Below, in pieces: positions 24,864 to 63,570 of a stretch of 64,000 nt of DNA. Each line of letters opens with the position of its first letter. Within the stretch, counting starts at the first letter, position 1. The position numbers and the translations under genes are program-made. The notes under the pieces are model-generated. The model saw only the letters and a list, made by a program, of their open reading frames with translations. It was not told where the DNA came from and ran no database searches. This DNA comes from Naegleria gruberi (lineage: Eukaryota): the NCBI GenBank assembly GCA_000004985.1, contig GG738878.1; one strand, given 5' to 3'.

Positions 24864-24967
24864 TTGTTTAAATTAGTTTTATTAATAAAGATAACACAAA
24901 CAATAAATTGTAAATAAGAGAGTGTTTTAGATTGAACAGGGCTTAGTATTTTTTACGAACAATGTAT

Positions 24968-25040: not shown

Positions 25041-26465
25041 TAATGTTTTATTTTCAATATCTTAATTTATTGTTATTATTCATTTCTGTTTTCACTCCCT
25101 TGTAGTGCAGTCTGCCTTTTGGTGGAATGTTGAACCGAAAAACAATTTGAAAATTCATTAGAAGAAGCATTAATCTTATAAAAGGAAGGTAGTTGACTGT
25201 CCGTTTAAATACACTTGAATAGGATACAACTTTTTTTCGTTGTTTGTAACTTCATGGTTGACAATCAAAGTATTCGTGGACTCCACAACATTGGAAAGTC
25301 TTGGACTGGAAAATCTCTTATTGTTAGGCAGTGAAAATGACAAGAAGGCTTACCTGAAGTCTTAATTTCCTTTTTCCATACACCATCAATCTAATGCGTG
25401 ACAATGGATTCAACCAAACCCTCTGTTTTCAAAAACCTTTTCACACATTCACATAAATAAAAATCTTATAAACGAGCTCGTGGGATCTTCTCTTCATCCC
25501 GTTTCACCAGCTCTTTAAGATACATTCCCCATCTTCAGTACTATATTTTACAACAACAATTATAGCTAAAATCGCTTTAATTCATTTAGGAAGATCATTG
25601 GAGATTGTCCAACAACAGAAATATTTTTTAATTTTAATATTTATTTAATAATCTAAATTGTTAATATCCTGATTTAAACAAACACTTTTAAACTCGTTCA
25701 ATAATTTTTAGACTTGTAGTGAAGAGCAACTCACGTACAACTCCAACCAACATCTTATTTGAAAATCAAAAACGATACCGTACTCAAACAAATAAGGAAA
25801 AGTTGGCAAGAAATCATTTCGAACAACATCAAAATTGTATTTAATTACAACCTTTTGTACAGAGTTTCGTTTCATCAGTTTACACTCTATCGACATCACT
25901 CGACCCGATATAACTGAATTGTATTGTTGGCGCCATTTTTTTATTGAATTAGCTGAGTGGTACAAGAAGAAACTGTTCGGGCTTTTCTCAACCTGTGCTG
26001 CCATTTGCTTTTCAGTTTGCCTGTTGTTTGTGTTCTCTCTCTTTGCGCATCTCTTAATCGTAATTGACGTACCGCCAAGCAAAGCACTGTATTGATTTAG
26101 AAAACGACTGTGCTGTTTGTTGTTGTTGAGGTCCAGAGTTTATTGTTATCACTCCTCAACTACCTCCTTAGTGCTTGCTCAAAATCCAAAAAAAAACACT
26201 CCATTGGCTTATTGAACTGAACAGCGGTTTCAAAGTTCATTTTCTTTCAACTTCCTTACTGCCCTCATTCCTCTTGAAATCACATTCCTACCAATCCGAA
26301 GATTGGATTAATAGCGATTGTTGATTTGCCTTATATTCCCTACAACAACACACCTCTTCTACAATATTACTACCAACTACCAACTACTTCCATTATTAAT
26401 TCTTTTAAGAATATTTAGTGATCATCGACTTTCCTCATCAAACTCTCATAACCTCCAATTTAAGA

Positions 26466-38500: not shown

Positions 38501-41500
38501 AATTGATTGCTCCTCTTTGTATCAAATCTCTATCACCTTCTTTCTCAGCGAAAAGTTCAGAGGCAGATGCACTGGAGAAAACATATTTGTAATTCAGAGT
38601 GACCACAGAACCTTTGGTCTGATCATAGAGGCCAAGAATTTCCTTGTAAAGAGATGTAGGTTCACTAAGATCCAACAGTTGGATATTTCTTAAACTTCCA
38701 GAAATCGCAACGCTATCTAAATCAATTAGGCATGATATAGTGGTACCAGCATTGATTAATAATTGGGCTATGGTTATACCATTGCTTAGGATAAATACAT
38801 TGGACTCTCCAGCTGTAATTGATGTTGTAAGAAGTTTGCAACTTTCTTGATTACCATCCAATAGCATTTTGGCTATTTCACTAAACTGTTGACCAGCATC
38901 TACTTCATCCTCATCAGGAACATAAGAATAATAATTAATCTTGTTAAAGGCTGATATTTGATCGATAATATCTTGCAAGTCGTAACCGTAGTCAATAAAA
39001 GTAGAGAGAATGGAGGGCTCAACAAAACATTGTAAGCTCTTGAACTCGATTTTGAGTAACATTTGAGAAGAAGGATCATAAATTAAAGAGGTAGGATCTG
39101 TAGATCTGGTGAATGAAACATTGACCAAGTGTTCTTCTGGATTGTTTTCATCTTCTATTGATTTGATAATGTAAAATTCTCTATCTTGCAAAATTTCTGA
39201 TTTTACGTTCATAGAGTGAAGGAATAATTGAATGTTGGTATCCAGATTGTGGTACTGTCGGAAATAAGCGTTCAGATGGGAAAAGTGAATAGAAGCCAAG
39301 TTGAAACTTTGATGAGAAAGAGTCAGTATGAATGAATTCAACTTGAATCTTATGGCTATGAGTACACCTTGTTTTTCTTCCTCCTCATCATCTTCATCGT
39401 CAGAAAAGCTTGCTTCTTTCAAAATATCAGTAATATCATCAATAAAGAAGCTTGTATCGAATGAGTAAATAAACATTCTTAGGGTTGTGATCCAATTTTC
39501 TGTTTCATCCAGAGATGAACATTTGAATTGAATAAATTTCGTTTGATAACCCTTCTTTTGTGGAAGTTCCAATATAAATGTATTTTCTATAGTGTCTGAT
39601 TTGTGTACTTTGGTATGCTTGTTCAAATGTATAATAACATGAAGAAGTCTTGTATCTTCTGTATAAATAAATATCTTCTTAGTACTGCTCACTTCTACGA
39701 AGTAAGGCACAAATTCATTATCTTCATGATTGACTTGTAGAGTTCCCATAATTTTCAAGTCGTTAATTTTCTCCTTTGTACCAGTTGGGTTTTGTTTGAA
39801 TTCTGCTACTAATTGTGTCAACTTTGAAACAGCAAGCATACTCTCTTTGGAAAGAATAAAGTTAATCTTTGGAATATCAAGCAAGAGTTGAACTTTTTCT
39901 TCCACGGTTTCTTCTTTGTGTTTAATAGCACTTGCTGCCAGTGAGGTCTTTTCTAAAATAACATCATATGTAGTAATTTGTTGTTGGTCTGTCAGATATC
40001 CAATAGCATTAATATCTTTAGGAACAACAATTTCCATATTTTCCAGATTGATATCGAACTTTTCTCTGGAAGCTATGCTAGTATCTTTACGCAGTTTGAG
40101 CAATCCAAAATCAAGTAAAAGGAATCTACTGTCAGGATCTGTTGGATTCCAAGGAATGATGATTTGTGGAGCCTTGATATCGAAGGTTAGATCCACAGTG
40201 GTGTCATCTTGCATAAGAACTTCCTTAATCTCCTTTTTGGCCAATTTAGATACTTTCTTGATATGCCTCTTGGCTTCTTTTTCTAAGCGTTTGATATTGA
40301 CATTGTCAAAGTATAAGAATGAAAGTATTCTTTGGAAAAATTCAAAGTTAACTACAATATCGATTTGATTAAGAGCTACCGTCAAATAAATATCACTCTC
40401 TTCATTCTTTTTCTCCAAAGTAGATCGCTTCTCAATGTACAAAGAAAGAAGGTTAGAGGAAGTTTCATTGTACCTTTTAGATTTTGTAATAATTTCAGGA
40501 TAAAGAGTTTGCTTGAATCTATCGAATAATGTTAAATTACCCATAGAAGAACAAACTTTGAATGCTTTGTGAGGTAAAATTTGAATATCTGATACGAATC
40601 TATCTACTTCAAGTTCTAGTAAATCATTTCTTTCGTGATAGACCCTAAATGCTACCTTGGCCAAATCTACGTGGACTCTAACCTTTACATAGTCATCAGG
40701 TATTTCAACGGGTTTCTCTTCATAACCTATAGATTTGTACAGTTCTTCTTTCACCTTATCAGAAAGCTCAATAGCCTTTGCTTGTAGTTTATCTTTCGAG
40801 AACCAGCTTGATTTCTTTTTATGCTCTTCGAAATTCTTTGCTTCCTGATTAATTTCCTTATGTGCACACTTTCTGAAGAACAGAACTTCCTGCAGTGTTC
40901 TTTGATCTTCCAGCTCAGCTAATCTCTTCTCTTCATCTGGGCTGAGCTTTTGCTTGGTTACCCACGGAACTTTTACATGAGTTTTGTAAAGCTTGACGTA
41001 TTCTTTACAATGTAAGCTCAAAATATTTTCATAATGTTGCTTTTTCTTGTCCATTTGTCTCTGAAAATTAACACATTTGAGGGCATACTTCCAATAAGAA
41101 ATGGGGTCAAATTTCTCAGGTCTAAAATGTCGGTATTGGCTTTGGATTGAATAATTTGTAATATATTCCACAATTTTAAAAATGGAATTATACTGATTCT
41201 GACTCAAACACATCTGAATATCATGCACAAAGTGAAAATCAAAATTAAAAACTGGTCTTGTAAAATCTATCCCTGAAGCGGAGAGCTTTTGCATAGTAAG
41301 CTTCAAAAATCCGTCTACTGGTTCCAACAAGTACACTCTGTCATTGGCTTTGATAATGCTCTGTATTATGTCTCTATCGCAAACTTTCTTTTCTATACAT
41401 GTATTTACAAAATCTTCTTTCTCTGTCCAAGGATTCAAATATATCGCCAGCTTGGACATGGTCAATAATTTATAAGTTAATTCTCCTAAATTTTTCTGAA

Positions 41501-42080
41501 ATTTAGTTTCAAAGTTTTCATTTGTAGAATTTACTTCCATACTCTCTAAATAAAATCCACCAACACAGTTATTATCATCTTGATATCGGATATGAATATT
41601 CTCAATTTTAATCTTTAAATTATTTAAAACTGTTTCTATCAACTTGTCGAAAAATCCTTCTTCTGTTTTTTCATCACCTGTACTAGCTGCTGCCTTTTCT
41701 GCTTTGGCAGCTTCTTGTTTTTCAAATTGATCCAATACGTGTTTTTTTAAATCTCGTTGCCTTTGTTTTTCCTCTTCTTCAACAAATGGTCTTCTCATCT
41801 TCGGACGAAGAACAATATATACATCCTTCAATCTACAAACAACAGATTTAGCATTTAAACTTGTATAGGGAACATCAAATTCAAGAAGGGATATGTGACT
41901 AAAAGAAATATAAAAAGGTATTGAATCCGAAATATTATCCAAAGCATACTCCTTCAATTTAATATCATTCAAAGAAGCAACACCTTTCAATACAGCAATA
42001 TTTAAATTCTTCCGATCAAAATTATCAACATATTGTTGCAAGTATGGTACAAGCAAACTAGATACAATATTCTCAATCAT
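32550..42080 (-). CDS. VPS13-family bulk lipid-transfer protein (chorein N-terminal domain). Single uninterrupted ORF of 3176 aa.
   Basis: N-terminus MIENIVSSLLVPYLQQYVDNFDRKNLNIAVLKGVASLNDIKLKEYAL matches the chorein-N signature. Its size and repetitive beta-rich architecture fit VPS13. It ends 6 bp from the stop of the PPR gene on the opposite strand. Confidence 0.9.
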   Translation of the reverse strand: MIENIVSSLLVPYLQQYVDNFDRKNLNIAVLKGVASLNDIKLKEYALDNISDSIPFYISFSHISLLEFDVPYTSLNAKSVVCRLKDVYIVLRPKMRRPFVEEEEKQRQRDLKKHVLDQFEKQEAAKAEKAAASTGDEKTEEGFFDKLIETVLNNLKIKIENIHIRYQDDNNCVGGFYLESMEVNSTNENFETKFQKNLGELTYKLLTMSKLAIYLNPWTEKEDFVNTCIEKKVCDRDIIQSIIKANDRVYLLEPVDGFLKLTMQKLSASGIDFTRPVFNFDFHFVHDIQMCLSQNQYNSIFKIVEYITNYSIQSQYRHFRPEKFDPISYWKYALKCVNFQRQMDKKKQHYENILSLHCKEYVKLYKTHVKVPWVTKQKLSPDEEKRLAELEDQRTLQEVLFFRKCAHKEINQEAKNFEEHKKKSSWFSKDKLQAKAIELSDKVKEELYKSIGYEEKPVEIPDDYVKVRVHVDLAKVAFRVYHERNDLLELEVDRFVSDIQILPHKAFKVCSSMGNLTLFDRFKQTLYPEIITKSKRYNETSSNLLSLYIEKRSTLEKKNEESDIYLTVALNQIDIVVNFEFFQRILSFLYFDNVNIKRLEKEAKRHIKKVSKLAKKEIKEVLMQDDTTVDLTFDIKAPQIIIPWNPTDPDSRFLLLDFGLLKLRKDTSIASREKFDINLENMEIVVPKDINAIGYLTDQQQITTYDVILEKTSLAASAIKHKEETVEEKVQLLLDIPKINFILSKESMLAVSKLTQLVAEFKQNPTGTKEKINDLKIMGTLQVNHEDNEFVPYFVEVSSTKKIFIYTEDTRLLHVIIHLNKHTKVHKSDTIENTFILELPQKKGYQTKFIQFKCSSLDETENWITTLRMFIYSFDTSFFIDDITDILKEASFSDDEDDEEEEKQGVLIAIRFKLNSFILTLSHQSFNLASIHFSHLNAYFRQYHNLDTNIQLFLHSMNVKSEILQDREFYIIKSIEDENNPEEHLVNVSFTRSTDPTSLIYDPSSQMLLKIEFKSLQCFVEPSILSTFIDYGYDLQDIIDQISAFNKINYYSYVPDEDEVDAGQQFSEIAKMLLDGNQESCKLLTTSITAGESNVFILSNGITIAQLLINAGTTISCLIDLDSVAISGSLRNIQLLDLSEPTSLYKEILGLYDQTKGSVVTLNYKYVFSSASASELFAEKEGDRDLIQRGAINYRQFLSMDTSAIKYVHIQRFYHKAQNYISGPLLNALKRESTRNKLAEVGLKGKDIISKRIINNQIKLNIKITSPVVIFPSNFQSKDHFLAHLGNLVVENFLEGNSDTPIDHVSVLLNDIMLEFISDASNDHEKIVSDIFIKVDVKKPIITPFTKTKDNNEFDITKEVVFVDFSEINFNLTHRQYQIIFDFINGNIRDGMRDVNEERKFYKSIGTLVTRRKKKDLLLKRVSSEKTIEKFSSNIIITDVYVTAPNISLLILKSNGSNFAKLSVSNFQLNNKIDINDCIHMNMTLGSIIASDMRQDTTNVFSNFIEFSDPNGCFSMIYENDKTNLVETVNLKLSNPKLVIIPELLLDFRHFFSDTKYFQNDRLAELLMVGTNIDDISQYEVVLEENNKLLKPSSSSLLLKGDFGTPQLVIPEASSDVNSRLLVLKFSSSIDFKSTEGGLSEKGIFKISGLSILVEHGNRTLPLVDSTDVDIDIMRISSQEDKEERIIKVLLLRGGNTRLSYFDVKMFYNIAQQFKRQMEKPSILVEEDITQIIEQCALAEAKPKSIIAKDFKEMISDELLPKMLVNKIIVDLKSISILVVDDLSGFDIPIVKLQLGGFKLNSLIKSLGPQDNHISAYLEFLAYGDCYNFKNAEWEPIIEKNKIPIHCVYQNQKESPNHIVQIECEDVINLNITYSALETVVSTAKAWIKELEQDTVKQKELAVTFEPFNIINKSGLKASFKITNEVTALEQDQEIHFSFPPSYSDRNQYLDLNIEGTIIKVLANKDGIHGYSILVSNKEFGQLEHHVFIEIKDKNKRKTIIVHSGCKIRNKTDRVWQLGCFIGEQVVSLGVLSPFKSIYLPTNLVVENATLTLRPCKDLNSEHSEYKWSRNDPLLYSISTLRKSHAKTIITQNKHATNKKDHFYCILNSKSSHNKMTKINIIPPLAIQNVLQEDLQFALFGSSTKDENIKIAKYNGFIKKGDTHFVYKIDMQKPKLWIQTIIQGWQTKDINLIYSNSSTEQEDISLNFSNFYTTGRILNLKYDVTSTSNTYLKIVVHCPYLIMNYTDFSIEVEDSSKENCLLGCKTTVNNKESLMFNYTDEKSLIFSKKVVLKTSDGFSSPPFSIDSVGASSEVVLQHASDKSKVPLKLGTFVTLANEKYERTKVVIITPRYLLVNGLYSKDNKSLEIEAKQFGDETHIYSIQQTKPCHFYWTMNAEEMETIKVDNPLLMHFYRKKTPMICVRLKTGDVLSEWSTPFTIDTLGEIPLIVNGNFITAKITETNGCVHVHFTRAALPPYFIVNKTTHSISVSQVYTGEYISISPNQTIPYTAPDIKSKHSIHVTLADKYKLGAIDIDKVKKSKIITISQLKKKVLIRLTTYRGYTRVISILEKFSEQEVLPEIENEEEESQTDLIQSFVFLKGIGISIINHLQKELLYMLAESLSFNFNVTDKNKQFLEFKMNRLSIDNQMENCTFPILLTNANKLGLRDFLHFSMIIDTKEKDFDYIPYLSLLMQEAKLSVDFRFAHEVFEMVKSLKGKKVNNEKQIVLSKIDTSAESEIDEIIPDFDHNIYSNPQSDRMIYFEYFELHPIKVDLSFVFNEISTESDSDLSILLRTLGARLSMNVDEAPIRLNALILNHPPLTSRFQLMENVKSHYTRYAIQEMFAILGSFDILGNPIGLFNDIDKGVYDLFYEPMEGITKSPKDFTLGLAKGTTSFFKHSIHGTFNTASKVTESISNGISLLTMDEDYQVKRKEANHLSKRPKHIGEGILSGAQSLSLGLFEAGTGIFTKPIEGASKEGVSGFFKGIGKGIIGIPVKPVTGVLDFVYKTSEGLKNTTQYFDRDANVTRKRFPRYVGADKKLNPYDQNLAFGNYVYNLIRKDPSFGETTYVKHFFTNTPAIILVGDKHLFKVECTEGDKVYSVGNPPPTEVIMENIKIVWSYDSKSIFQVKPGEKESVVIRVVSSGSWFSFGNQYEDIVLNVDSTHELISVLHKMNK

Positions 42081-43653: not shown

Positions 43654-43895
43654 AAACAAAACTCACCTCTTGACGCCTCTTTGCAAATCTTTCATATAAC
43701 CGAGTTGCTAATTTTGTAATTATTTAGAAGAATCTCCACCTCAAAGAACTACATTGAGCCCACAACTACTGCTTCGACTCTAGCCAAATTAACACCAACA
43801 AAAAAAAGCACCAAACAAAATGGTTTCCGACACCAATAACAACAATCAGAGTTGTGCACAACAATTGGATCGCCGACAATTTTTTCATTAAGAAT

Positions 43896-46067
43896 ATGGT
43901 AACAAATTTGAACCATTTTATATATGTGAATATGACAAGGAGTGCAGTGGTGGGAATGCTGCAAATTTTGTGTCAAATAAGCTATGGACCTACATTACCT
44001 CTGCATATATTTTCAGTTTATAAGCTTCTAATTTCTACAGTAACTTTTTATTTTAGTAGACCTCTAGCAATTGTTTCTGCATCAATATTTGTTACATTTA
44101 ATGCTGCTGCTCTTGGTATTTCATTTTGGGTGAATTATGATTCATTAACACAAATCGAAAGGGATTACTTTCCTTTTAGATTTATAGAAATGTTGGTAGT
44201 ATTATATAGCGTGTTTATTGGATCAATGCTTTTCTCAATATTCATTACAGATAAGAATAAGCAATATACAGCTCAACAAATTGAAACTACGAAGGAAAAA
44301 ATTATTAGCTCTGAAAAGACAAAATATATTGCCAATTTGAGTCATGAAGCTAGAAATCCTTTGCACGCCATTAGTGGATCTATTTCAATCCTCAAACATA
44401 ATATCCAATCTGAAGAATGTAGTAATCAATGTCCTCACTGCTATGTAACAAATGGTTCTATAGCTGAATTAGTTGAAGACCTGGAAGAAAACACAACATT
44501 ATTGGAGCATATATTCTCGTCTTCATTACAAGTTAGCTCACTTGAAATGGGAAAAGTTGAGTTAAAAGTTGAAGATACTAACATGTTATGTCTAGTTGAA
44601 TCAATTACTAGTGTTTTCTCTCAATTGGCTAAAACCAAACAACTTTCACTTCACAGTTACTTTAATGTAATTAAGGTTCCAATTTTTTTGAGAGCAGATT
44701 CTGTTAGAGTAAGCCAAGTGGTAATGAATCTTATATCTAATGCCATTAAGTACACAGATAAGGGACATATTAAATTGAATTGTGATACTCTGAGTGAAAG
44801 AGAAATTCGCAAACACTTTCCAACAAAAAGTATTGAAGAGTATGAATTTATCAAAATTGAGTGTATAGATACAGGTAAAGGAATCCCTGAAGCACAAGTT
44901 AAGGATCTTTTCAAACCATTTCATGTTGTTGAACAAGGTCAAAAATCTGTTGACAGCTATATTGCTCAAACAGAAAAAATGGCAGAATTCAAAGATATTA
45001 ATGGTGCTAGTATGTTACTCAATACTAGTCGTAGCAATGGCCTCGGATTATCTATATCAAAAATGCTTATTGATAAGATGGAGGGTGATATTATTGTTTC
45101 CAGTAGTTCGAAAGGTACTAACATGACTATCATTTTACCACTGAGAAGGGTTAAGCCAGAAGTATTGAAGGAAGAACTGGTTCAGAAGAATAACAATTAT
45201 TTAACATGTGACAAGATTTTTGAGATTTTGAATGAAGAAAATGAAAGATTGAATATTATAATTATTGATGAGGATAGATTTTTCAGACACATTATGCTCT
45301 CCTATTGGAAGATGTTTAAGAGAGCTGTTCACATTAGTGCAGAGTATAAAACAAGTATAGAATTTTGTGATTCAGAATTAGACAAGGATTTAATGCAAAA
45401 TACCACAGTTATTTTCTGCCCTGAAAAAGATATCAAACATACAGAGTCCAATTTCAAACATGAACGAGTAGTTTTGATTCCAACCATTTGTAGAGGTAGT
45501 CATAGATTATTTTCGGATCGTATCTACCTTTCCAAGCCAGTGAAATTTATAGATTTGTTGGAATTTGTCTATGAACATATTTTTGATAGAACTGCTTCCT
45601 CCACTCATAGACAAAGTGTTGTGGAAATTGAGAAAATACCAAAAATAATGAAAACCAAGTCAGTACCAGTAATTGAAGAATTCAAGAGTGAAAAAAAAGT
45701 TCTTATAGTTGATGACAATCACCTAAATCTTAAAATATTGGAAAAACTCCTTAGAATATTAGGTTTTGAAGACATTGAAGTTGCCCACGATGGTATGGAA
45801 TGCTTCAACAAGTATAAGAAGAAGAATTATGATATTATTTTATTAGATTGCATAATGCCTATTCTAAGTGGAAAAGAATCTTGTGAGCTTATCAGAAACA
45901 TGGAAAAGCAAGAACACCTAGAACATAGAATCCCAATATTAGCAATCACAGCAAATGTTTGGGAAGATAGAGAATCTCTTATATCTCAAGGTTTTGACTC
46001 TGTTATTTACAAACCTATTCAGCTGGAGAAACTACAAGCAGAAATGATGGCTTTATTGGATGATTAA
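43896..46067 (+). CDS. Hybrid sensor histidine kinase. It has an N-terminal multi-TM region, HisKA/HATPase domains and a C-terminal receiver domain.
   Basis: H-box ANLSHEARNPLHAISGSI, N-box MNLISNAIKYT, G1 box IDTGKGIPE and G2 box GLGLSISKMLIDKMEGDI. Receiver domain: VLIVDDNHLNLKIL..DIILLDCIMPILSG..YKPIQ. The first ATG in the GTG-started ORF is at 43896. Confidence 0.85.
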   Translation: MVTNLNHFIYVNMTRSAVVGMLQILCQISYGPTLPLHIFSVYKLLISTVTFYFSRPLAIVSASIFVTFNAAALGISFWVNYDSLTQIERDYFPFRFIEMLVVLYSVFIGSMLFSIFITDKNKQYTAQQIETTKEKIISSEKTKYIANLSHEARNPLHAISGSISILKHNIQSEECSNQCPHCYVTNGSIAELVEDLEENTTLLEHIFSSSLQVSSLEMGKVELKVEDTNMLCLVESITSVFSQLAKTKQLSLHSYFNVIKVPIFLRADSVRVSQVVMNLISNAIKYTDKGHIKLNCDTLSEREIRKHFPTKSIEEYEFIKIECIDTGKGIPEAQVKDLFKPFHVVEQGQKSVDSYIAQTEKMAEFKDINGASMLLNTSRSNGLGLSISKMLIDKMEGDIIVSSSSKGTNMTIILPLRRVKPEVLKEELVQKNNNYLTCDKIFEILNEENERLNIIIIDEDRFFRHIMLSYWKMFKRAVHISAEYKTSIEFCDSELDKDLMQNTTVIFCPEKDIKHTESNFKHERVVLIPTICRGSHRLFSDRIYLSKPVKFIDLLEFVYEHIFDRTASSTHRQSVVEIEKIPKIMKTKSVPVIEEFKSEKKVLIVDDNHLNLKILEKLLRILGFEDIEVAHDGMECFNKYKKKNYDIILLDCIMPILSGKESCELIRNMEKQEHLEHRIPILAITANVWEDRESLISQGFDSVIYKPIQLEKLQAEMMALLDD

Positions 46068-54359: not shown

Positions 54360-57022
54360 TTATTTTTCAGTTAGTGCTAAAGCATAATCCTCACTACAAT
54401 TCTTTTCAGCCATACTCTTCAAGTATTGAGCTCTTCTCTTCAACTCGGCAATATATTTAATGGAGGAATAATCAATAGCGAGTTCTTCTGGTTTGTAAGT
54501 TTCTTTCCATTGTGCATTGAGTCTGTAAATTTCCTCAATTTCTTCAACGGCAGTGTCATACTTTTTATCAAAGAGAGCATCTCTTATTCTCAATAACCTA
54601 TCACTCACCACCTTCTGTGAGGATGTAATATCTTCAATTTCACCGTCGACAGTGTAAACTTCAGTTGGTTTGGATTTACCTTTTAGTCTGACTGAATCGA
54701 CATACATGCAAATAAACTTATTCTTCACAATCTCATAAGTATTGTTGCCGATAAGAATTGGTGTATCATATCTCTTGTTTAACATTTCTAATCTACCAGC
54801 AGTGTTAACAGTGTCACCAATAGCTGTGAAACTGAATCTATCCTTTGATCCAATATTTCCCATCATACAATTACCAGTATTGACACCAACTCTAATCTTG
54901 ACAATTGGAAGATTTTCCTTAATACATTTCGATTTCAATTGGTCAATCTTGTACAAACAAAGAACTGCAGCCCTTGTTCCCTTATAGGCATGGTCTTGTA
55001 CAACTCTTAATGGATTTGAAAACAGACTCATGGTACCATCCCCAATGAATTTATCAATAATACCATCATGTGCCTCAACTGTCTCAGTAATAATATTGAA
55101 ATACTCTGTCAGAATTTTAAGCAAAACAGACAAGCTTGAAGATTCTGAAAACGAAGTAAAATCTGCAATATCAGTAAACATAACAGTTGAATTCGCATTG
55201 GCCATTCCCAACTTGGAAGCATTACCTGTTCTTACAATATCCCTGACAATATCTTTTGGAATATATTTCATAAAACTGTGCAAACCATTCTTCACTGTCT
55301 TGATTGAGGTCTGTAATAGATCGAGTTCATACATGGTCTTAAGGACCTTGGATGGCTTCACTGTATCAACTTCAAGTTTAGAAATCTTGTACATATCTCT
55401 GGAAACTTTCCATATTGATCTTGTAATGAATTGAGTAACAACTATCATTAATAAGGTACCCAGAATAATAAGTATAATAGATACTGATAATAGAGCGGGT
55501 GAACTTGTGAAAATGGTCTTGACGAACCCATAGTCCTCTGTAACAATCACCACAATCCAATCAAGCCCATTATCGGTAATTTGGTGGATAGTAATCTTGC
55601 TGTTACCCACCATGAACATTGAAAAATCTGCATTTGGGTCTAAGCTTTCCTTAATTGTGCTCGTTGGGATAGTAGTAGCAGTTCCCCACATGGACTTTGG
55701 AAGATGGTACAGTATCTTTCGATCTTCCAGCACTGTACAAACCTCTGAGAATACTTCAGTTGTGTTCGAGATGTGATTTCTCACATTGGACGGGTCTTTT
55801 GTTTGCGCATTGAATGAAGAAGATATAATCAAGCCGTGTCTCTCAACAATCAAAACCTTAATAGATATTGTTTGCATATCCTTATTGGCCTCAATAACAT
55901 TAACAAGCGAACTATCAATATTGTACAAATCAAAGTGAGCACCAACAATTTGAGTAACATTTCTTGTCTCGACAGTTCCATTAGGATAGACATAATCCTG
56001 AGTATTAATAAAATCCAACGTTGTGGAAGCTCCCAGTGATGTAGCTCCAATGAATGCGTTGAAAAACACAGGTGACCACATGTAATCTGGATATGTCTTA
56101 GAAAGACCTGCCTTAAACCATGGTCTAATGGTTGGATCGTAGTTTTTGCTGGCCTGCTTTAACATGATTGGTTCATAAAAATCATCTCTCGAATAAATAC
56201 CAACAGTAGCATTATCATCTCTGATTTGAATGGTATCTCGCGTTACACTCTTTTCAATGGCACAATAATTCTTAATACTGTTGCCGTAGTAAAAGATTGA
56301 TGAACTAGGGAAGCTACTCTTGGAAGGTCCAAAGACAGATCTTATCCTCCTGCAAGTGTCATCATAACTATTGGTCAATTTGAAATTTAGTTTGTGGTCC
56401 TGGATCAATATGCCATTTCTCATCGTTTCCAGGATTGTTGGTGCTACATTGATAAAATCCTTGATTTTAGTCACGATATTCTTCTCTCTGATTGTTGTTA
56501 TATTATTAACGGATTGTTCTCCGCTTGAGTAGAACAATAATATTAAGGAACCTATGATGAATAATTATTAACATATATATTATTAAAAACTGTTAACTTA
56601 CCAATGCAAATAGCTGTTTGAAGGAGAAAGACAACGAGAAGAATATTTTGGAGAGTGTGTGGGGCTGGACAACATTCTTTGAAAAACCTTTTCATCTTGC
56701 CTTTCTTTCCCTCAGAGTACCCAAATAAATCATCAAATGTTGAACTTATCGTTGAAATTCCATCTGATTGAAGGCTTAGTGAGGCATGGGATGAAGAATT
56801 TTCTGTATTGGATTGGAAATAGTTTGTTGGTGGGTGTTCATTTGGTTCGCTTGCTGTTGTTGAGGTAATATAGGTATTCGATCTAGAGTTAAAATCACTT
56901 GAAAAGTCTAAACTCCCAGATGATGGATAAATCTTATTATCAAAATAATAAGATGCAGAATTAGATCTGTGTGATCTTGTTTTTGATATCTGCTGATGAA
57001 GAGGTGTTACTTGGGTAACCAT
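54360..57022 (-). CDS. Sensor adenylyl cyclase of the dictyostelid ACG type. Domain order is N-terminal cytosolic tail, signal-anchor, extracellular CHASE-like sensor domain, single TM, then class III cyclase catalytic domain. Two exons on the minus strand: 57022-56602 and 56551-54360.
   Basis: Intron 56552-56601 (GTAAGT..AG, phase 1) joins ..LQTAICIG to SLILLFYSSGEQSV... A hydrophobic anchor follows MKRFFKECC. The extracellular region contains RPWF. A TM helix (LLSVSIILIILGTLLMIVVTQFI) follows. The cyclase core is FTDIADFTSFSE..FIGDGTMSLF..IRVGVNTGNCMMGNIGS..FTAIGDTVNTAGRLE. Confidence 0.8.
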
Positions 57023-57859: not shown

Positions 57860-60610
57860 TTAATCATCAATGCAAATAATCTCTGGTGCATCCGTTTTTG
57901 ACTTTTTGTTTGGTGGTTCAATTGAAGATGAGGGAGCAACTTCTAGTTGAAGTGTCGAATTATTATCTGTTGACTCTTCAGGTGGGGTTCTTCTCTTTTT
58001 CAATAAAGATTCCAGTTTAGTTTTAGCTGCATTGTTAAGTTCGGTTGCCTGTTTCACAAGTCTCTCAGAGATCACAAGTTTTGTTAAAATAATTGATTTC
58101 TGAACTCTTTGTTTCTGTATTTCCCTAATTGGAGCAACCATCGATTCAATGTGTGAAAGTTCCTTAACTAGGCCAGTGATTGAACAAGTTCTCTCTGTTT
58201 CTGACCATAAAAATTGTTTTAGAATCTTACAGTCACTACAAATACATGAAATACTAGATTTCACAGAAAAATTTGGTAGGGGAATAATGAACTTCTTTGT
58301 TCTAATTCCATCATCAATTAAATCAATGCTCCAGTTCAGTAGGATATCTAACTGGTCAGATTTAGGCATAATATTCGAAACAACCTCAATGAGTGGAGCG
58401 ACTAGGGTGCTATAATTCTCTTCTGATGCAACACTAAGAACAACGCGGCATGCTCTAGTAATAAAATCATTCCATGAATGGTTATGGAGCATTCGAATGA
58501 AGGAAGTTGCGAATTTCAAATCAAGGAAACAATCTCGATGGTCATATAACATCCATTCTATCAATAATTCACTCAGAGGTTTACAACTCATTGTTGATAA
58601 CACCATATTCAAACAATTTTCACTTGTCAACCATTTAGAGAATGAAAAACGTAGATTTTTCAATTTTTCAACCCCAATTTGATTTGCAATTTTGATTATC
58701 AATGGAAGGTCCAGCTCTTTGTTTTCATAAGAACCTCTTCCTCTTTGATTTGGAATAGAGTTTTTAGCCAATTCTTTTACAATCAATTTCTCATAGATTG
58801 AGGTGTCCTTCAATAAGTCTATCAACTTTGTAATACTTTCCTTATAACTGGCATACTTATAATAATCTTCCACAATATTTTCTACTACTGTTGAATGCAT
58901 TGAATATGTACATTTTTGTGCAAGTATTATTAATTTTTCAAAGCAGCTGCTATCGTATAAATGGTCATACTTATTGACAGAATACTTTGGCATTGTCATT
59001 TGTATCAACGGCACGTCATTGATTTCAATTAGAGAGCCAATAAATTCCTTCATATATCGTTTTTTACATAAATTTTCGCTAATAGTTTCTCTAAACGGTT
59101 CAATTGTAAAATGAGAAATAAGAGAAGATAAACTTTTTTGGTCTATTCCGATAACCAGTTTTGCCAATTCGACATCATTGAGCTGAATAATAGATTGAAT
59201 TACAACTTTTTCTTCATCACCCCATAAGTAGATGTTTTTCTTGGCCAGCATCTGCTTTACAAATGCAATAGAATTCTCTCTAGAGTTTGACTCTATGAAT
59301 GAAGGTAATATTTTGCTACAAAATGAAAATCCAAACTTGAGGCAAATTCTTTGTTGGCACTTCTTTGGATAAATCATTAGACATGCATTTCTGTATTGCT
59401 TTTCTTTTGTTGACCCCTCATTTCCAGTATTTTCGTTAATGGACTTGTGGAATAGTTTCATGGAAGACAGAGCAGACTTGCAAACAACACTTCTGAAAGG
59501 AACGTCTATTTTACGTTGTTGGGATCCAAAAATATACTCGAGTGATACTTCTGGATCGTCAAAACCTTCCACCTTCCTCTCCATAATTCCTAAATCTAAA
59601 ACAAGGTCTTGATATTCCTCAGCATACCTTTCCAGAATATCGTAAATATTGTAATCAGAACCTTTAAGATTTTCAGGATCCAAACTCTTTTGAGAATATT
59701 GGTGCTGAAATACATACATTCTGTAGAGAGTGTCAACATCTTTTGCATCAGCATTCCACTCAGAAACTATTTGTTGAAGTCTTTTGGCTAATTCTTCATA
59801 ACCTTTAAGTGTTGGCTTACTTTCTTTGTTACCTGAAAAACAAAGGTTATATATCAAACAAACTCTGTAACCAGAATTTACATTCTTAATCATGTGCTCA
59901 CAATCTGCATAAAAAGAAATAAAGTGAGGAGTATATCTAGAAACAGATGCAAAATCATATTCTTCCTCTTCCTCTCCGTGTCTAACTATTATTTCACCTC
60001 CACTATATTCCGAAGGAAGTTGAACAACTAGTGTTCCAAACATTCGTTCTTCCTTTTCCGAATCTTTGTGAAATTGAAAGTGACCTCCCTCTTCATATAC
60101 TAATAGCTTGTATAAATTAGCTGAGAGTCTGAGATGTTTACTAATTCCCAAGCCATCCCTAATTTCATTATCCACTAAACCGTCAATCAAATCATCCCAA
60201 GTTGGATTTGTAATTTCAAATCTTGATGGATCTAATTGCCATGTTTTTCTAACATTTTCATCGTAAATTGTATCCTCTCCTCTTCCATATGGTGCCTTAC
60301 TGCAAAATTGAATTAGCTCTGAAGCACTCCCATTCGACAATGGAAATCCAATTGTTTTAAATTGTTCATTATCCAACTTGAGTTGCAAACCTGGTAAACC
60401 AAAATCGCTGTCCAATGCACCACACTGCGTAAATTTACTTCCTCCCTTGTTTTGAGCATCCAAAATAAATTCTTGTAAATTGTCTGATGTTTTAATGGTA
60501 TCAGCATGAAGTTGAACACAATCATCATAAAAATCGGAACCGTAAGCTTCACAATAGTCACTGTCTGTTTCCGATGATTCTGATGAGGAAGAAACTCTCC
60601 TTCTGGTCAT
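57860..60610 (-). CDS. Large protein with an N-terminal 2OG-Fe(II) oxygenase (prolyl-4-hydroxylase-like, PF13640-type) domain and a 600-aa alpha-helical C-terminal region of unknown function.
   Basis: HxD...H iron triad and flanking strands: LYKLLVYEEGGHFQFHKDSEK..FGTLVVQLPSEYSGGEIIVRHGEE. The remainder has no recognisable motif. The start codon is only 47 bp downstream of the SPO11-like stop. Confidence 0.5.
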   Translation of the reverse strand: MTRRRVSSSSESSETDSDYCEAYGSDFYDDCVQLHADTIKTSDNLQEFILDAQNKGGSKFTQCGALDSDFGLPGLQLKLDNEQFKTIGFPLSNGSASELIQFCSKAPYGRGEDTIYDENVRKTWQLDPSRFEITNPTWDDLIDGLVDNEIRDGLGISKHLRLSANLYKLLVYEEGGHFQFHKDSEKEERMFGTLVVQLPSEYSGGEIIVRHGEEEEEYDFASVSRYTPHFISFYADCEHMIKNVNSGYRVCLIYNLCFSGNKESKPTLKGYEELAKRLQQIVSEWNADAKDVDTLYRMYVFQHQYSQKSLDPENLKGSDYNIYDILERYAEEYQDLVLDLGIMERKVEGFDDPEVSLEYIFGSQQRKIDVPFRSVVCKSALSSMKLFHKSINENTGNEGSTKEKQYRNACLMIYPKKCQQRICLKFGFSFCSKILPSFIESNSRENSIAFVKQMLAKKNIYLWGDEEKVVIQSIIQLNDVELAKLVIGIDQKSLSSLISHFTIEPFRETISENLCKKRYMKEFIGSLIEINDVPLIQMTMPKYSVNKYDHLYDSSCFEKLIILAQKCTYSMHSTVVENIVEDYYKYASYKESITKLIDLLKDTSIYEKLIVKELAKNSIPNQRGRGSYENKELDLPLIIKIANQIGVEKLKNLRFSFSKWLTSENCLNMVLSTMSCKPLSELLIEWMLYDHRDCFLDLKFATSFIRMLHNHSWNDFITRACRVVLSVASEENYSTLVAPLIEVVSNIMPKSDQLDILLNWSIDLIDDGIRTKKFIIPLPNFSVKSSISCICSDCKILKQFLWSETERTCSITGLVKELSHIESMVAPIREIQKQRVQKSIILTKLVISERLVKQATELNNAAKTKLESLLKKRRTPPEESTDNNSTLQLEVAPSSSIEPPNKKSKTDAPEIICIDD

Positions 60611-60657
60611 TTGTGAAATTTTTTAGTTTCAAATTAATAAAAAATTGGCGGTAATAT

Positions 60658-61767
60658 TCACAACACGTTTAAATGTAGTTCTACCTTTGCTGTGATATAA
60701 TCCCAATAATCAATCTCCAAATGATTGAGACCCTCTATTTCGACTTTGTAATTTAAATCTTTTTGTAAATTAATTTGAGTTTTTACAGTGTCATCCAATT
60801 CAAGTTGGGTGTTGTTTAGAGAGTTTATCTTTTTCAAATCCAATTCTTCCAGAGGCATCCAACAATCCTTCCACTTTGAAATCAATTGAGGAGCATTGTC
60901 AAAATCATTCAAATGAACTCCAATCCATGACATTCTGGAACAAGTTTGAAGCACCCAATAATGCCAATCTTCGGTGGAGTCTACACAACTATGGATGGTC
61001 AGATTCTCCTTCTCATTTTCAAATGATAACGAACCATTCATGTAAACATTGGCAATTTCAGCTCCATAAGGATCACCATCTGTGAGTGTGAAAATATTCA
61101 AACTTCTCCTTTGATATTTTGCTACTTGCTTTGTTAGTGTTACAATAAAATCTCTTGTTGGAACATCAGGATATCCCTTAGATGTGATTATTAATGATGT
61201 ATCTTTGAGACTGCTTGCTTGACTTTTCAACACTTGAAAAACTGACTCTTTTTCAACAATGATCACCTTATCTACTTCAACAGGGATAGAGAACTCTACA
61301 ATTTGTAAATGAGGAATCGAAGGAAGATTACACCCTTTAGAAGCACTGACTATAGTTGTTGTTGGTTGTTGTCCTCTATTTTCAATATCAATCAATGAGA
61401 TTTCCTTCCAAGCAATTGGTCCACAAACTTCTCCCTTCGATTGAGGAACAATATGAAGATCATGCCTATTAACTCGCCAACTTGATGATAAATCCTTCAA
61501 TATGGAATCTAGTTGTGTCTGATCTTTTAGAATAGGCTTGTTACAATAATACAAATCTCTCTTGGTTGAAAATTTGTTTAAAGTACACAACTGATACACT
61601 AAATTCATCACCTGAAACTTGGAAATAAATGTTGATGGATATTTGGTCAGATCTTTCAGCAAGAAGCCTTTTTCATTCGGAATATCAGATGATGGTGATG
61701 AAACTAATTCCCTCACAAAGGCTAAAACTTTCTCCTCAATTCTTTCTCTCACTTGAATTGTTTCCAT
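60658..61767 (-). CDS. SPO11: SPO11/topoisomerase VI subunit A homolog (meiotic DNA double-strand-break transesterase family). Single 369-aa ORF.
   Basis: All family motifs are in the correct order and spacing: catalytic 5Y-CAP tyrosine TKRDLYYCN; Toprim glutamate IIVEKESVFQ; SKGYPDVPTRDF; DxD metal site LTDGDPYGAEIANVY; and a C-terminal KVEIEGL motif. No introns are needed. Confidence 0.8.
   Translation of the reverse strand: METIQVRERIEEKVLAFVRELVSSPSSDIPNEKGFLLKDLTKYPSTFISKFQVMNLVYQLCTLNKFSTKRDLYYCNKPILKDQTQLDSILKDLSSSWRVNRHDLHIVPQSKGEVCGPIAWKEISLIDIENRGQQPTTTIVSASKGCNLPSIPHLQIVEFSIPVEVDKVIIVEKESVFQVLKSQASSLKDTSLIITSKGYPDVPTRDFIVTLTKQVAKYQRRSLNIFTLTDGDPYGAEIANVYMNGSLSFENEKENLTIHSCVDSTEDWHYWVLQTCSRMSWIGVHLNDFDNAPQLISKWKDCWMPLEELDLKKINSLNNTQLELDDTVKTQINLQKDLNYKVEIEGLNHLEIDYWDYITAKVELHLNVL
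60698..60775. repeat. Copy of a short repeat that overlaps the 3' coding end of the SPO11-like gene (paired with 43590-43653).
   Basis: See the paired feature. The reverse complement of this copy encodes the C-terminal ..TQINLQKDLNYKVEIEGLNHLEIDYWD.. of the SPO11-like protein. Confidence 0.6.
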
Positions 61768-61820
61768 TTTTTAAATTAGAAATTAATTTATTATTATAAT
61801 TATATTAATATTTAGGAGGA

Positions 61821-62441
61821 TTATTGGGTTGGTTTTGACTTAGCAGCAAGAAGTTTTACTCTTCTGTTATATTCTTCACGATTAGTGACATAGAGATGGA
61901 AAGGTTCAGCTTGAGCAGGATCCTTTTCGTTAGGATTATCCAACAATTCTTGAATACCTAAAAGTAATTGTTTGACAGTGAGAGAAGGCTTCCAATCCTT
62001 ATCTTCATTCAAAATACTCAAACAAACAGTACCACTTGGGAAAATGTTTGGATGGAAAAGTGGTGGTACAAATTTACACTTTGGAGGCTTGTCTGGATAT
62101 TCATCAGGGAATTCAATATCTAATCTATATTCACCTCCTTCCCATATTGTACCTGGTTTACCTGGGATACCACAATTCCATACCATTACATTAGTTGTTC
62201 CGTCTTCTTGTTGTTGAGGTCTGGCCCAGAAACCCTGTTATTGTTGTTGTTGTTAATTTTCATCACACAATTTTGTCAATTATTGTCATCATTAAAATCA
62301 ATTTAATTATTTGGTGATCGGAAGAAAATATTCTTTATATATCGATATTAAATTACACCTCAAAACAATACATACATAAGGGTGGTCCTTTCTCCAGTTC
62401 TTTCTCTCTTCCATAACTCTCTTTCTAGCGATGGAGGACAT
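61821..62441 (-). CDS. UBC9: SUMO-conjugating enzyme UBC9 (E2). Two exons on the minus strand: 62441-62376 and 62234-61821.
   Basis: Exon 1 [22 protein letters not shown] ends at a GTATGT donor. Intron 62235-62375 has an ACAG acceptor. Exon 2 is [126 protein letters not shown].. It is near-identical in motif content to UBC9 from animals and fungi, including the HPN and active-site Cys. Confidence 0.9.
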
Positions 62442-63193: not shown

Positions 63194-63339
63194 GAATTGA
63201 CCCAAAAACAGGATATTGTTATTTGTGTGAAAGTACTGATGGCACAATTTCAATTTTCAAATAAGTTTTTGTTGTAATTTTTGTAATGAGTTCTCAACAT
63301 GAACTTTGGTGTATGCATGACACGAAACATCAAAAAAAA

Positions 63340-63570
63340 ATGCAAATACAAGTCAGAACATTATCAGGAGGTTACCTCAAGTTTGATTTGGAAAATTCAG
63401 ATAAAATAATATATTTGAAGAAACTCATTGAGGAAAAGATTGGATTTAGCATTGTCAATCTACGATTAGTATATAATGGAAAGATTCTCCCAGACGATTC
63501 CTCAATAATCGATACTGGCTTAAAGAATGGTGATATCATTCATCTCACTCCCCAATTAAAAGGAGGTTGA
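63340..63570 (+). CDS. Stand-alone 76-aa ubiquitin-fold protein ending in Gly-Gly immediately before the stop codon. It is a divergent ubiquitin/NEDD8-like modifier candidate.
   Basis: MQIQVRTLSGGYLKFDLENSDKIIYLKKLIEEKIGFSIVNLRLVYNGKILPDDSSIIDTGLKNGDIIHLTPQLKGG. It has the same length and beta-grasp register as ubiquitin and is about 30-35% identical by eye (MQIxVxTLxG, SDxI, KxxIxxKxG, RLxxxGKxLxD, HLxxxLxGG). The ATG at 63340 is preceded by an A9 run. The longer ORF starts upstream at 63286. Confidence 0.6.
   Translation: MQIQVRTLSGGYLKFDLENSDKIIYLKKLIEEKIGFSIVNLRLVYNGKILPDDSSIIDTGLKNGDIIHLTPQLKGG

What the first reader, a model, noticed from the sequence alone, without database searches (positions are those of the whole stretch)
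60658..61767. Apparently intact SPO11/TopoVI-A gene in a dictyostelid-like genome
The ORF carries every catalytic hallmark of SPO11/Top6A: the 5Y-CAP Tyr in RDLYY, the Toprim Glu in VEKESVF, GYPDVPTR, the DxD motif in DGDPYG and a C-terminal KVEIEGL. It has no frame disruptions. The surrounding genes strongly suggest a social amoeba; examples are the ACG-type CHASE adenylyl cyclase, hybrid histidine kinases, 40-50-nt GTAAGT introns and poly-N/Q proteins. Published comparative work reports that dictyostelids are unique among sexual eukaryotes in lacking SPO11. Two explanations are possible. Either this window comes from an amoebozoan lineage that retained SPO11, or the gene has a non-meiotic TopoVI-like role, in which case a Top6B partner would be expected elsewhere. 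The gene is also wedged only 47 bp upstream of the next gene's start codon.
Basis: partly seen in the sequence, partly recalled or inferred. Interest (0 to 1): 0.7.

Follow-up and report, generated by a model that had tools for sequence, protein, structure and literature searches.

The report
Known Naegleria gruberi SPO11 gene
The ORF is a genuine, intact SPO11 (meiotic DNA-break enzyme) gene, but the DNA comes from the amoeboflagellate Naegleria gruberi, where SPO11 is expected and already catalogued, so there is no dictyostelid paradox; the one useful by-product is that the public gene model wrongly fuses it to the next gene.

Summary
Window 60658..61767 (-) is an uninterrupted 369-aa ORF with both SPO11/Top6A Pfam domains, every catalytic residue, a very confident AlphaFold model (pLDDT 94) and a full-length fold match to Top6A and yeast Spo11.

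Seven of ten large window ORFs are letter-for-letter identical to Naegleria gruberi NEG-M proteins. The closest relatives of the SPO11 ORF are from N. lovaniensis, N. fowleri and Willaertia, and the UBC9 gene upstream is syntenic. Naegleria is a heterolobosean (Discoba), not a dictyostelid.

SPO11 in N. gruberi is already published, as two paralogues with JGI ids 50278 and 81222. This locus is in GenBank as XP_002675419.1 / D2VKE9, "type IIB DNA topoisomerase".

One small new point: the public model has 1251 aa. It splices SPO11 residues 1-345 onto residue 11 of the downstream 916-aa ORF through a 152-nt GT..AG "intron". That intron deletes a conserved, confidently folded C-terminal helix, the stop codon and the 47-bp spacer. 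No orthologue is fused, so the stand-alone 369-aa ORF is the better model.

The gene scores closest to SPO11-1-type meiotic proteins and less well to TopoVIA. Interest is low.

The parts
60658..61767 (-). SPO11 coding sequence: 369 aa plus TGA stop, single exon.
   Evidence: ORF list and sequence. Pfam TP6A_N and TOP6A-Spo11_Toprim. AF2 pLDDT 94. Foldseek top hits are Top6A and Spo11.
61699..61761 (-). N-terminal helix (aa 3-23). This is the position of the helix that binds the B subunit (Top6B/TOPOVIBL) in family members.
   Evidence: Predicted helix H3-23 with pLDDT about 94. It is conserved in N. lovaniensis, N. fowleri, Willaertia and P0004. The role is inferred from Brinkmeier et al..
61450..61617 (-). 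5Y-CAP / winged-helix region (Pfam TP6A_N, aa 51-106).
61546..61548 (-). Codon of the catalytic tyrosine Y74 (second Y of RDLYY).
   Evidence: It aligns with the yeast Spo11 RDIFY tyrosine and is invariant in 102 family members.
60661..61266 (-). Toprim domain and C-terminal subdomain (aa 168-369). It includes the metal-binding residues E172 (61252..61254), D230 (61078..61080) and D232 (61072..61074).
   Evidence: Pfam match, conservation and structure.
60661..60732 (-). Conserved C-terminal 24 residues (GLNHLEIDYWDYITAKVELHLNVL, aa 346-369). The public fused gene model omits them.
   Evidence: Y354 and K361 are invariant across the five relatives (three named heteroloboseans, two metagenome sequences) plus Drosophila. 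Helix 354-368 has pLDDT 94-96. The public model P0032 ends its SPO11 part at aa 345.
60580..60731 (-). 152-nt 'intron' implied by public model XP_002675419.1 (donor GTCTCA, acceptor ..ATCAG). It is probably an annotation artefact.
   Evidence: Mapping of P0032 onto the window. The GT of the donor is absent at the homologous position in the 69%-identical relative L002 (GAGGCTCTC). No orthologue is fused.
60611..60657 (-). 47-bp spacer between the SPO11 stop codon and the ATG of the downstream gene.
57860..60610 (-). Downstream 916-aa ORF with a weak 2OG-Fe(II) oxygenase-like match. It is not part of SPO11, but the public 1251-aa model joins it to SPO11.
61768..61820 (-). 53-bp spacer between the stop codon of UBC9 and the SPO11 ATG. 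The SPO11 promoter and 5' UTR must lie here or inside UBC9.
61821..62441 (-). Upstream neighbour UBC9 (SUMO E2). It has two exons (62441..62376 and 62234..61821) and a 141-nt GTATGT..CAG intron; the product is 159 aa. It is a synteny anchor to N. lovaniensis and N. fowleri.
   Evidence: Sequence, Pfam UQ_con 1e-45, PDB UBC9 about 1e-68, and 159-aa UQ_con neighbours in L001 and L004.

Best explanation
This is the Naegleria gruberi (strain NEG-M) orthologue of SPO11. SPO11 is the Top6A-derived catalytic subunit of the TopoVI-like complex that makes programmed DNA double-strand breaks at the start of meiotic recombination. Shown: the 369-aa single-exon ORF has an N-terminal helix, a 5Y-CAP winged helix carrying catalytic Tyr74, and a Toprim domain carrying the metal ligands E172, D230 and D232. 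Inferred from family knowledge: two protomers would dimerise on DNA, each Tyr would attack one strand to form a covalent 5'-phosphotyrosyl link with Mg2+ held by the Toprim acidic residues, and the N-terminal helix would dock a TOPOVIBL partner encoded elsewhere in the genome. The gene is one of two SPO11 paralogues already reported for N. gruberi (JGI 50278) and is deposited as XP_002675419.1 / D2VKE9. That public 1251-aa model is most likely a gene-prediction artefact that fuses SPO11 to the downstream gene. The stand-alone ORF read by the first stage is the better model.
For: Organism:
- 7 of 10 window ORFs are exact matches to N. gruberi proteins EFC42578-42671 on a 395,411-bp contig.
- The taxonomy is Heterolobosea.

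Family:
- Both Pfam domains score above their cut-offs.
- PDB sequence hits are yeast Spo11 8urq (3e-16) and Top6A 2zbk and 1d3y.
- The AF2 model has pLDDT 94 and pTM 0.92.
- The top ten Foldseek hits are all Top6A or Spo11, at E about 1e-13.
- The catalytic residues are invariant or nearly invariant in 102 homologues and are all present here.

Orthology and synteny:
- The ORF is 49% identical to N. lovaniensis, 47% to N. fowleri and 41% to Willaertia.
- A 159-aa UBC9 gene lies directly upstream in N. gruberi, N. lovaniensis and N. fowleri.

Public record:
- P0032 = XP_002675419.1 / D2VKE9, 'type IIB DNA topoisomerase [N. gruberi]', begins with residues 1-345 of this ORF.
- Herman et al. 2021 Table S2 lists N. 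gruberi Spo11 as 50278 and 81222. It pairs 50278 with N. fowleri g437, two gene numbers from Smc2 (g439). That matches the SMC-UBC9-SPO11 order I see in L004. The window neighbours are NAEGRDRAFT_50265, 50270 and 50276.

Selection: dN/dS is 0.20 between the N. lovaniensis and N. fowleri orthologues.

Meiotic subtype rather than TopoVI:
- Group-profile scores for the window protein are animal SPO11 154 bits, fungal Spo11 140, plant SPO11-1 124 and TopoVIA-like 99.
- It lacks the TopoVIA signature KRDLFYTDVKLFQDQ.
- Literature: no BIN4 or RHL1 was found in excavates, these factors strictly co-occur with TopoVI A and B, and an N. gruberi sequence is in the TOPOVIBL alignment.

The fusion is an artefact:
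- The deleted C-terminal 24 residues are conserved (Y354 and K361 invariant) and fold as a confident helix.
- The donor GTCTCA differs from the UBC9 intron's GTATGT, and its GT is missing in the nearest relative.
- None of five orthologues is fused, and their downstream genes differ.
Against: - Meiosis has never been observed directly in Naegleria, so the meiotic function rests on homology and on the co-occurrence of other meiosis genes reported in the literature.
- No expression or transcript data could be consulted. The fused transcript cannot be formally excluded, and the 53-bp upstream spacer leaves little room for a promoter.
- The SPO11-1 versus SPO11-2 assignment is not resolved. The NJ tree was star-like, the group profiles differ in size, and no named plant SPO11-2 reference was available.
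- The link between JGI id 50278 and this locus is inferred from id order and synteny; it was not read from a record.
Confidence: 0.88

Rival explanations
1. The gene encodes the A subunit of a genuine, non-meiotic topoisomerase VI (SPO11-3/TopoVIA type). It would act with an ATPase-competent Top6B in decatenation or endoreduplication, as in plants.
For: Sequence and fold similarity to archaeal Top6A is about as strong as to yeast Spo11. GenBank names it 'type IIB DNA topoisomerase'. Sex has not been seen in Naegleria.
Against: The window protein scores lower against TopoVIA-like eukaryotic sequences (99 bits) than against animal, fungal or plant SPO11-1 groups (124-154 bits). It lacks the conserved TopoVIA motif KRDLFYTDVKLFQDQ and the C-terminal [21 protein letters not shown]. 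Brinkmeier et al. found no BIN4 or RHL1 in excavates, report that these strictly co-occur with TopoVI A and B, and place N. gruberi sequences among SPO11 and TOPOVIBL.
Confidence: 0.06
2. The public 1251-aa model is right. N. gruberi would then make a SPO11 lacking its last 24 residues, fused to a 906-aa 2OG-oxygenase-like protein, constitutively or by alternative splicing.
For: GT..AG boundaries exist and keep the frame. The spacer is only 47 bp. The model is the one deposited in GenBank, UniProt and EukProt.
Against: The 'intron' contains 24 in-frame codons conserved across the heterolobosean relatives, with Y354 and K361 invariant, and a helix predicted at pLDDT 94-96. It also contains an in-frame stop and the downstream ORF's own ATG. 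The donor GTCTCA is unlike the GTATGT of the neighbouring UBC9 intron and is not conserved in L002. No orthologue is fused, and the downstream genes differ (TauE, patatin, CRAL_TRIO).
Confidence: 0.04
3. One reading: a dictyostelid or other amoebozoan lineage that retained SPO11.
For: AT-rich DNA (about 33% GC) and cyclase and hybrid histidine-kinase genes nearby.
Against: Window ORFs are exact matches to N. gruberi proteins. All close homologues are heteroloboseans, and synteny is with Naegleria genomes.
Confidence: 0.005
4. A decaying relic gene with no function in an asexual amoeba.
For: No observed meiosis in Naegleria.
Against: The ORF is intact and all catalytic residues are present. Orthologues are intact in four other heterolobosean genomes or contigs. 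dN/dS is 0.20 between N. lovaniensis and N. fowleri.
Confidence: 0.02

Closest known systems
Naegleria gruberi 'type IIB DNA topoisomerase' XP_002675419.1 / EFC42675.1 / UniProt D2VKE9; by inference JGI protein 50278, listed as Spo11 in Herman et al. 2021
   Same: It is the same locus and the same DNA. Residues 1-345 are identical to the window ORF.
   Different: The public model is 1251 aa. It drops SPO11 residues 346-369 and continues into residues 11-916 of the downstream ORF through a 152-nt predicted intron. The evidence here favours two separate genes.
Naegleria lovaniensis C9374_000991 and N. fowleri FDP41_011934 (orthologues; in N. fowleri V212 by inference g437 = Spo11)
   Same: They are 49% and 47% identical to the window ORF. 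They share the two-domain architecture, the N-terminal helix, the C-terminal EIEAL..YW.Y..K end and the UBC9 gene directly upstream.
   Different: They carry an insertion of about 75 residues after the N-terminal helix that N. gruberi lacks (445 and 446 aa against 369 aa). Their downstream neighbour is a TauE gene on the opposite strand, and SMC2 flanks UBC9.
Saccharomyces cerevisiae Spo11 (PDB 8urq/8uru) and animal or plant SPO11-1
   Same: They share the catalytic Tyr in RD(I/L)(F/Y)Y, the Toprim VEKE(A/S)VF and DxDPxG motifs, and the overall fold. These groups give the highest profile scores.
   Different: Identity is only about 26-30%. The heterolobosean proteins form their own long branch. 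The partners Rec102, Rec104 and Ski8 are yeast-specific.
Archaeal topoisomerase VI subunit A (PDB 1d3y, 2zbk, 2q2e, 9o8p)
   Same: They share the 5Y-CAP plus Toprim fold, with TM about 0.6-0.7 over about 340 columns and sequence E-values of 1e-10 to 1e-23.
   Different: NCBIfam Top6A equivalog scores (38-82 bits) are far below the curated cut-offs (424-675). The archaeal enzyme is an ATP-dependent strand-passage topoisomerase that works with Top6B, whereas this is a eukaryotic SPO11-type protein.

Membership tests
SPO11/Top6A (type IIB topoisomerase A-subunit superfamily) | 5Y-CAP / winged-helix domain with the catalytic tyrosine | tested here: met
   Pfam TP6A_N scores 50.2 bits against a cut-off of 26. 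Y74 and R70 are invariant in 102 homologues and align to the yeast Spo11 RDIFY.
SPO11/Top6A (type IIB topoisomerase A-subunit superfamily) | Toprim domain with the acidic metal-binding residues (E, DxD) | tested here: met
   Pfam TOP6A-Spo11_Toprim scores 99.9 bits against a cut-off of 24.1. E172, D230 and D232 are present and conserved.
SPO11/Top6A (type IIB topoisomerase A-subunit superfamily) | Overall three-dimensional fold matches solved Top6A and Spo11 structures | tested here: met
   The AF2 model has pLDDT 94 and pTM 0.92. The ten best Foldseek PDB hits are all Top6A or Spo11, at E 5e-14 to 3e-11.
SPO11/Top6A (type IIB topoisomerase A-subunit superfamily) | N-terminal helix that contacts the B subunit | tested here: inconclusive
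   A confident helix at aa 3-23 is present and conserved among the heterolobosean relatives. Binding to a B subunit was not modelled.
Meiotic SPO11 (TopoVI-like complex) | A TOPOVIBL-type partner encoded in the same genome | not testable with these tools
   Only the 64-kb window is available. Brinkmeier et al. include an N. gruberi sequence in their TOPOVIBL alignment (Supplementary Fig. 10).
Meiotic SPO11 (TopoVI-like complex) | Meiosis-associated expression and DSB-forming activity | not testable with these tools
   No expression data were available, and meiosis has not been observed in Naegleria. The function is inferred from homology and from the co-occurring meiotic toolkit.
SPO11-1 versus SPO11-2 subfamily | Phylogenetic placement with named SPO11-1 or SPO11-2 sequences | tested here: inconclusive
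   Profiles built from animal, fungal and plant SPO11-1 give the higher scores (124-154 bits), and the KRD(L/I)YY motif resembles SPO11-1. However, the NJ tree is star-like and no named SPO11-2 reference was obtained.
Eukaryotic TopoVIA (SPO11-3) | TopoVIA sequence signature (KRDLFYTDVKLFQDQ; C-terminal [21 protein letters not shown]) and best profile match to TopoVIA | tested here: not met
   The window has STKRDLYYCNKPILKDQ and KVEIEGLNHLEIDYWDYITAK. The TopoVIA-like group gives the lowest score, 99 bits.
Eukaryotic TopoVIA (SPO11-3) | Co-occurrence with TopoVIB, BIN4 and RHL1 | not testable with these tools
   Literature only. [quoted passage not shown]
Archaeal Top6A equivalogs (NCBIfam PRK04342 set) | Score above the curated equivalog cut-off | tested here: not met
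   The best score is 81.9 bits against a cut-off of 424.
Dictyostelid (Amoebozoa) genome | Source organism is a dictyostelid | tested here: not met
   Seven of ten window ORFs are exact matches to N. gruberi proteins. The lineage is Discoba; Heterolobosea.

The most novel reading that the evidence does not exclude
The deposited 1251-aa model could reflect a real (perhaps alternative) transcript. In that transcript N. gruberi SPO11 would lose its last helix and be fused to a 906-aa 2OG-Fe(II)-oxygenase-like protein. That would be a SPO11 fusion architecture not seen in the other heterolobosean relatives examined here.
Probability: 0.03. Interest if true: 0.5.

Novelty: already known. Interest (0 to 1): 0.1.

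Why it matters
It matters little as a discovery. SPO11 in Naegleria gruberi has been part of the published "meiotic toolkit" argument for cryptic sex in this amoeba since the genome paper, and this locus is already in GenBank and UniProt. The dictyostelid SPO11 puzzle is untouched.

The practical value is a correction. The reference protein (XP_002675419.1 / D2VKE9, 1251 aa) appears to be a chimera of SPO11 and an unrelated downstream gene. It lacks SPO11's conserved C-terminal helix. Anyone using that entry for SPO11 phylogenies, domain-architecture surveys or structure modelling should use the 369-aa ORF instead.

The case also illustrates that cyclases, hybrid histidine kinases and AT-rich compact DNA are not diagnostic of social amoebae.

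Tried and rejected
1. For a while I considered that SPO11 was unannotated in N. gruberi. The word-indexed homology searches returned no N. gruberi hit, and the exact ORF is not in the protein collection. I rejected this when the exhaustive HMMER scan returned P0032, which is the N. gruberi model fused to the next gene.

2. The look-up of encoding contigs on a window protein known to be in NCBI found nothing. The annotated N. gruberi contig could therefore not be viewed directly, and the link between JGI 50278 and this locus had to be inferred from id order and synteny.

3. A third homology search with a 102-sequence profile, meant to collect named SPO11-1, -2 and -3 references, returned only 7 uninformative hits.

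4. The NJ tree of 116 homologues was star-like and did not resolve the subfamily.

5. The OCR of a published SPO11 alignment (PMC4647503, Additional file 3) was too corrupted to build reference profiles. I used it only for the motif around the catalytic Tyr.

6. Full-text searches for NAEGRDRAFT_50278, D2VKE9, XP_002675419 and EFC42675 found no paper. The Fritz-Laylin 2010 genome paper is not held.

7. dN/dS for N. gruberi against N. lovaniensis and N. fowleri could not be computed because synonymous sites are saturated.

Full report
**1. Observation**

Window 60658..61767 on the minus strand is an uninterrupted ORF of 369 codons from ATG to TGA.
- RDLYY at aa 70-74
- VEKESVF at aa 171-177
- GYPDVPTR at aa 198-205
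- DGDPYG at aa 230-235
- KVEIEGL at aa 341-347

Pfam assigns both diagnostic domains above their gathering scores. TP6A_N scores 2.2e-13 and TOP6A-Spo11_Toprim scores 2.1e-28. The best matches among solved structures are yeast Spo11 (8urq, 3e-16) and archaeal Top6A (2zbk and 1d3y).

In an alignment of 102 family members gathered by an exhaustive HMMER scan, R70, Y74, D230, G235 and K341 are invariant. E172 and D232 are at least 90% conserved. The window protein has all of them.

An AlphaFold2 model built on that alignment is very confident, with mean pLDDT 94 and pTM 0.92. Its ten best Foldseek hits in the PDB are all Top6A or Spo11 chains, at E about 1e-13 and TM about 0.6-0.7. The 47-bp gap to the next start codon is also correct.

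**2. Source organism**

Seven of ten large ORFs from across the window are letter-for-letter identical to Naegleria gruberi proteins (EFC42578, 42582, 42583, 42586, 42665, 42669 and 42671). All lie on a single 395,411-bp contig. N. gruberi belongs to Discoba; Heterolobosea. It is unrelated to dictyostelids.

The closest relatives of the SPO11 ORF are:
- N. lovaniensis, 49% identity
- N. fowleri, 47%
- Willaertia magna, 41%
- two unnamed metagenome sequences (P0001 and P0004), 69% and 43%

The gene directly upstream on the same strand is a two-exon, 159-aa UBC9. A 159-aa UQ_con gene occupies the same position in N. lovaniensis and N. fowleri.

The adenylate/guanylate cyclase and hybrid histidine kinase that suggested a social amoeba do exist, but they are Naegleria genes.

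**3. Prior knowledge**

The gene is already known.
- Herman et al. 2021 (PMC8296547, Table S2) list two N. gruberi Spo11 genes, JGI 50278 and 81222. They pair 50278 with N. fowleri V212 g437.
- In the same table Smc2 is g439. In my N. fowleri locus the gene order is SMC, UBC9, SPO11 orthologue.
- In the window, the models of the 502xx series that I could identify run 50265, 50270, 50276 along the sequence. That leaves 50278 for this position. The identification is an inference but a tight one.
- A Naegleria pangenome paper also reports SPO11 with paralogues (PMC9928731).
- Brinkmeier et al. (bioRxiv 10.1101/2022.05.08.491100) include N. gruberi sequences in both their SPO11 and TOPOVIBL alignments. 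They confirm that dictyostelids lack Spo11.

**4. The one point worth recording: the public gene model**

The word-indexed searches returned no N. gruberi protein for this ORF, and the exact 369-aa sequence is not in the collection. The exhaustive scan then returned P0032. P0032 is XP_002675419.1 / EFC42675.1 / D2VKE9, "type IIB DNA topoisomerase [Naegleria gruberi strain NEG-M]", 1251 aa.

Mapping P0032 onto the window shows what it is made of:
- SPO11 residues 1-345
- joined to residues 11-916 of the downstream ORF (57860..60610)
- through a 152-nt GT..AG "intron" at 60731..60580

That "intron" removes SPO11's last 24 codons, its stop codon, the 47-bp spacer and the ATG of the next gene.

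Several results argue that the fusion is a prediction artefact:
- The deleted segment (GLNHLEIDYWDYITAKV...) aligns with the C-termini of all the heterolobosean relatives and of Drosophila Mei-W68. Y354 and K361 are invariant.
- It forms a helix (aa 354-368) predicted at pLDDT 94-96.
- The donor GTCTCA is unlike the GTATGT of the neighbouring UBC9 intron.
- The GT of the donor is absent at the homologous position of the 69%-identical relative, which reads GAGGCTCTC.
- None of the five related genes is fused. Their downstream neighbours differ: TauE, patatin and CRAL_TRIO.

The stand-alone 369-aa reading is therefore the better gene model. Transcript data were not available to settle the point.

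**5. Function**

Shown: the protein has a confident N-terminal helix (aa 3-23), a winged-helix 5Y-CAP domain with Tyr74, and a Toprim domain with E172, D230 and D232.

Inferred from established knowledge of Top6A and Spo11:
- A dimer would cleave both DNA strands by tyrosine attack, forming 5'-phosphotyrosyl links.
- Mg2+ would be coordinated by the Toprim acidic residues.
- The N-terminal helix would bind a TOPOVIBL-type partner encoded elsewhere.

The orthologues are under purifying selection. dN/dS is 0.20 between N. lovaniensis and N. fowleri. The comparisons involving N. gruberi are saturated at synonymous sites.

The evidence favours a meiotic SPO11 over a true TopoVIA:
- Profiles built from labelled groups score the window protein at 154 bits (animal SPO11), 140 (fungal Spo11), 124 (plant SPO11-1, anchored by maize SPO11-1), 116 (an unnamed clade with a D-x-N motif) and 99 (TopoVIA-like, anchored by a diatom sequence carrying KRDLFYTDVKLF).
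- The window protein lacks the TopoVIA signature.
- Brinkmeier et al. found no BIN4 or RHL1 in excavates, report that these strictly co-occur with TopoVI A and B, and do not list excavates among the groups carrying TopoVI.

The choice between SPO11-1 and SPO11-2 is not resolved. The NJ tree was star-like and I obtained no named SPO11-2 references.

**6. Verdict**

The ORF is real and is a catalytically intact SPO11. The organism is Naegleria gruberi, SPO11 is expected there, and this very gene is already catalogued. Novelty is "already known" and interest is low. The residual value is the likely mis-fusion in the public gene model. The residual uncertainty is the subfamily assignment and the usual caveat that Naegleria meiosis has never been observed.

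Noticed in passing
window 57860..61767 (-): The public N. gruberi protein XP_002675419.1 / D2VKE9 (1251 aa) fuses SPO11 (aa 1-345) to the downstream 916-aa ORF through a 152-nt predicted intron (60731..60580). That intron deletes a conserved C-terminal helix, the stop codon and the next gene's ATG. It is probably an annotation artefact.
   Followed up: yes
window 61821..62441 (-); L001 7016..7758; L004 5012..5779: UBC9 (SUMO E2, 159 aa, two exons, 141-nt intron) lies 53 bp upstream of SPO11 on the same strand. The UBC9-SPO11 adjacency is conserved in N. lovaniensis and N. fowleri, where an SMC gene (by inference Smc2, g439 in Herman et al.) lies next to UBC9. It is not conserved in Willaertia. 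In N. gruberi no SMC gene is apparent in the about 1.5 kb of window left beyond UBC9, though this was judged by eye only.
   Followed up: partly
window 63286..63570 (+): A 94-aa ubiquitin-like ORF ending in Gly-Gly (Pfam ubiquitin 6.9e-14, Rad60-SLD 1.5e-6) lies about 850 bp from UBC9 in divergent orientation. Whether it is a SUMO or NEDD8-type modifier was not determined.
   Followed up: partly
window 54360..56537 (-) and 43854..46067 (+): These are an adenylate/guanylate cyclase catalytic-domain protein and a hybrid histidine kinase (HisKA + HATPase_c + receiver).
   Followed up: partly
window 32550..42080 (-): A single uninterrupted 3176-aa ORF encodes a VPS13-family lipid-transfer protein (the VPS13 N-terminal, middle, VAB and C-terminal domains all match).
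   Followed up: no
window 24967..25041 (+): A lone tRNA-Asn (GTT) gene is the only Rfam or ARAGORN hit in the 64-kb window.
   Followed up: no
proteins P0098, P0122, P0133, P0162 (from; not in the window): This clade of environmental or MMETSP SPO11 relatives has D-Y/F-N-P-x-G in place of the canonical DxDPxG metal-binding motif, and VEKEG(I/V)F in the Toprim motif. They may be SPO11-2-type or inactive paralogues; they were not identified.
   Followed up: no
L001 8001..9338 and L004 6001..7341 compared with window 61600..61700: The N. lovaniensis and N. fowleri SPO11 orthologues carry an acidic, low-complexity insertion of about 75 residues between the N-terminal helix and the winged-helix domain. 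N. gruberi, the 69%-identical metagenome relative and P0004 lack all or most of it.
   Followed up: no
L002 1110..1300: In the 69%-identical metagenome relative, the called SPO11 gene reads about 45 codons past the conserved ...YIQAKV end and overlaps an opposite-strand CRAL_TRIO gene. This suggests a missed stop or intron (GTACGT follows AAA) or a gene-calling artefact.
   Followed up: no
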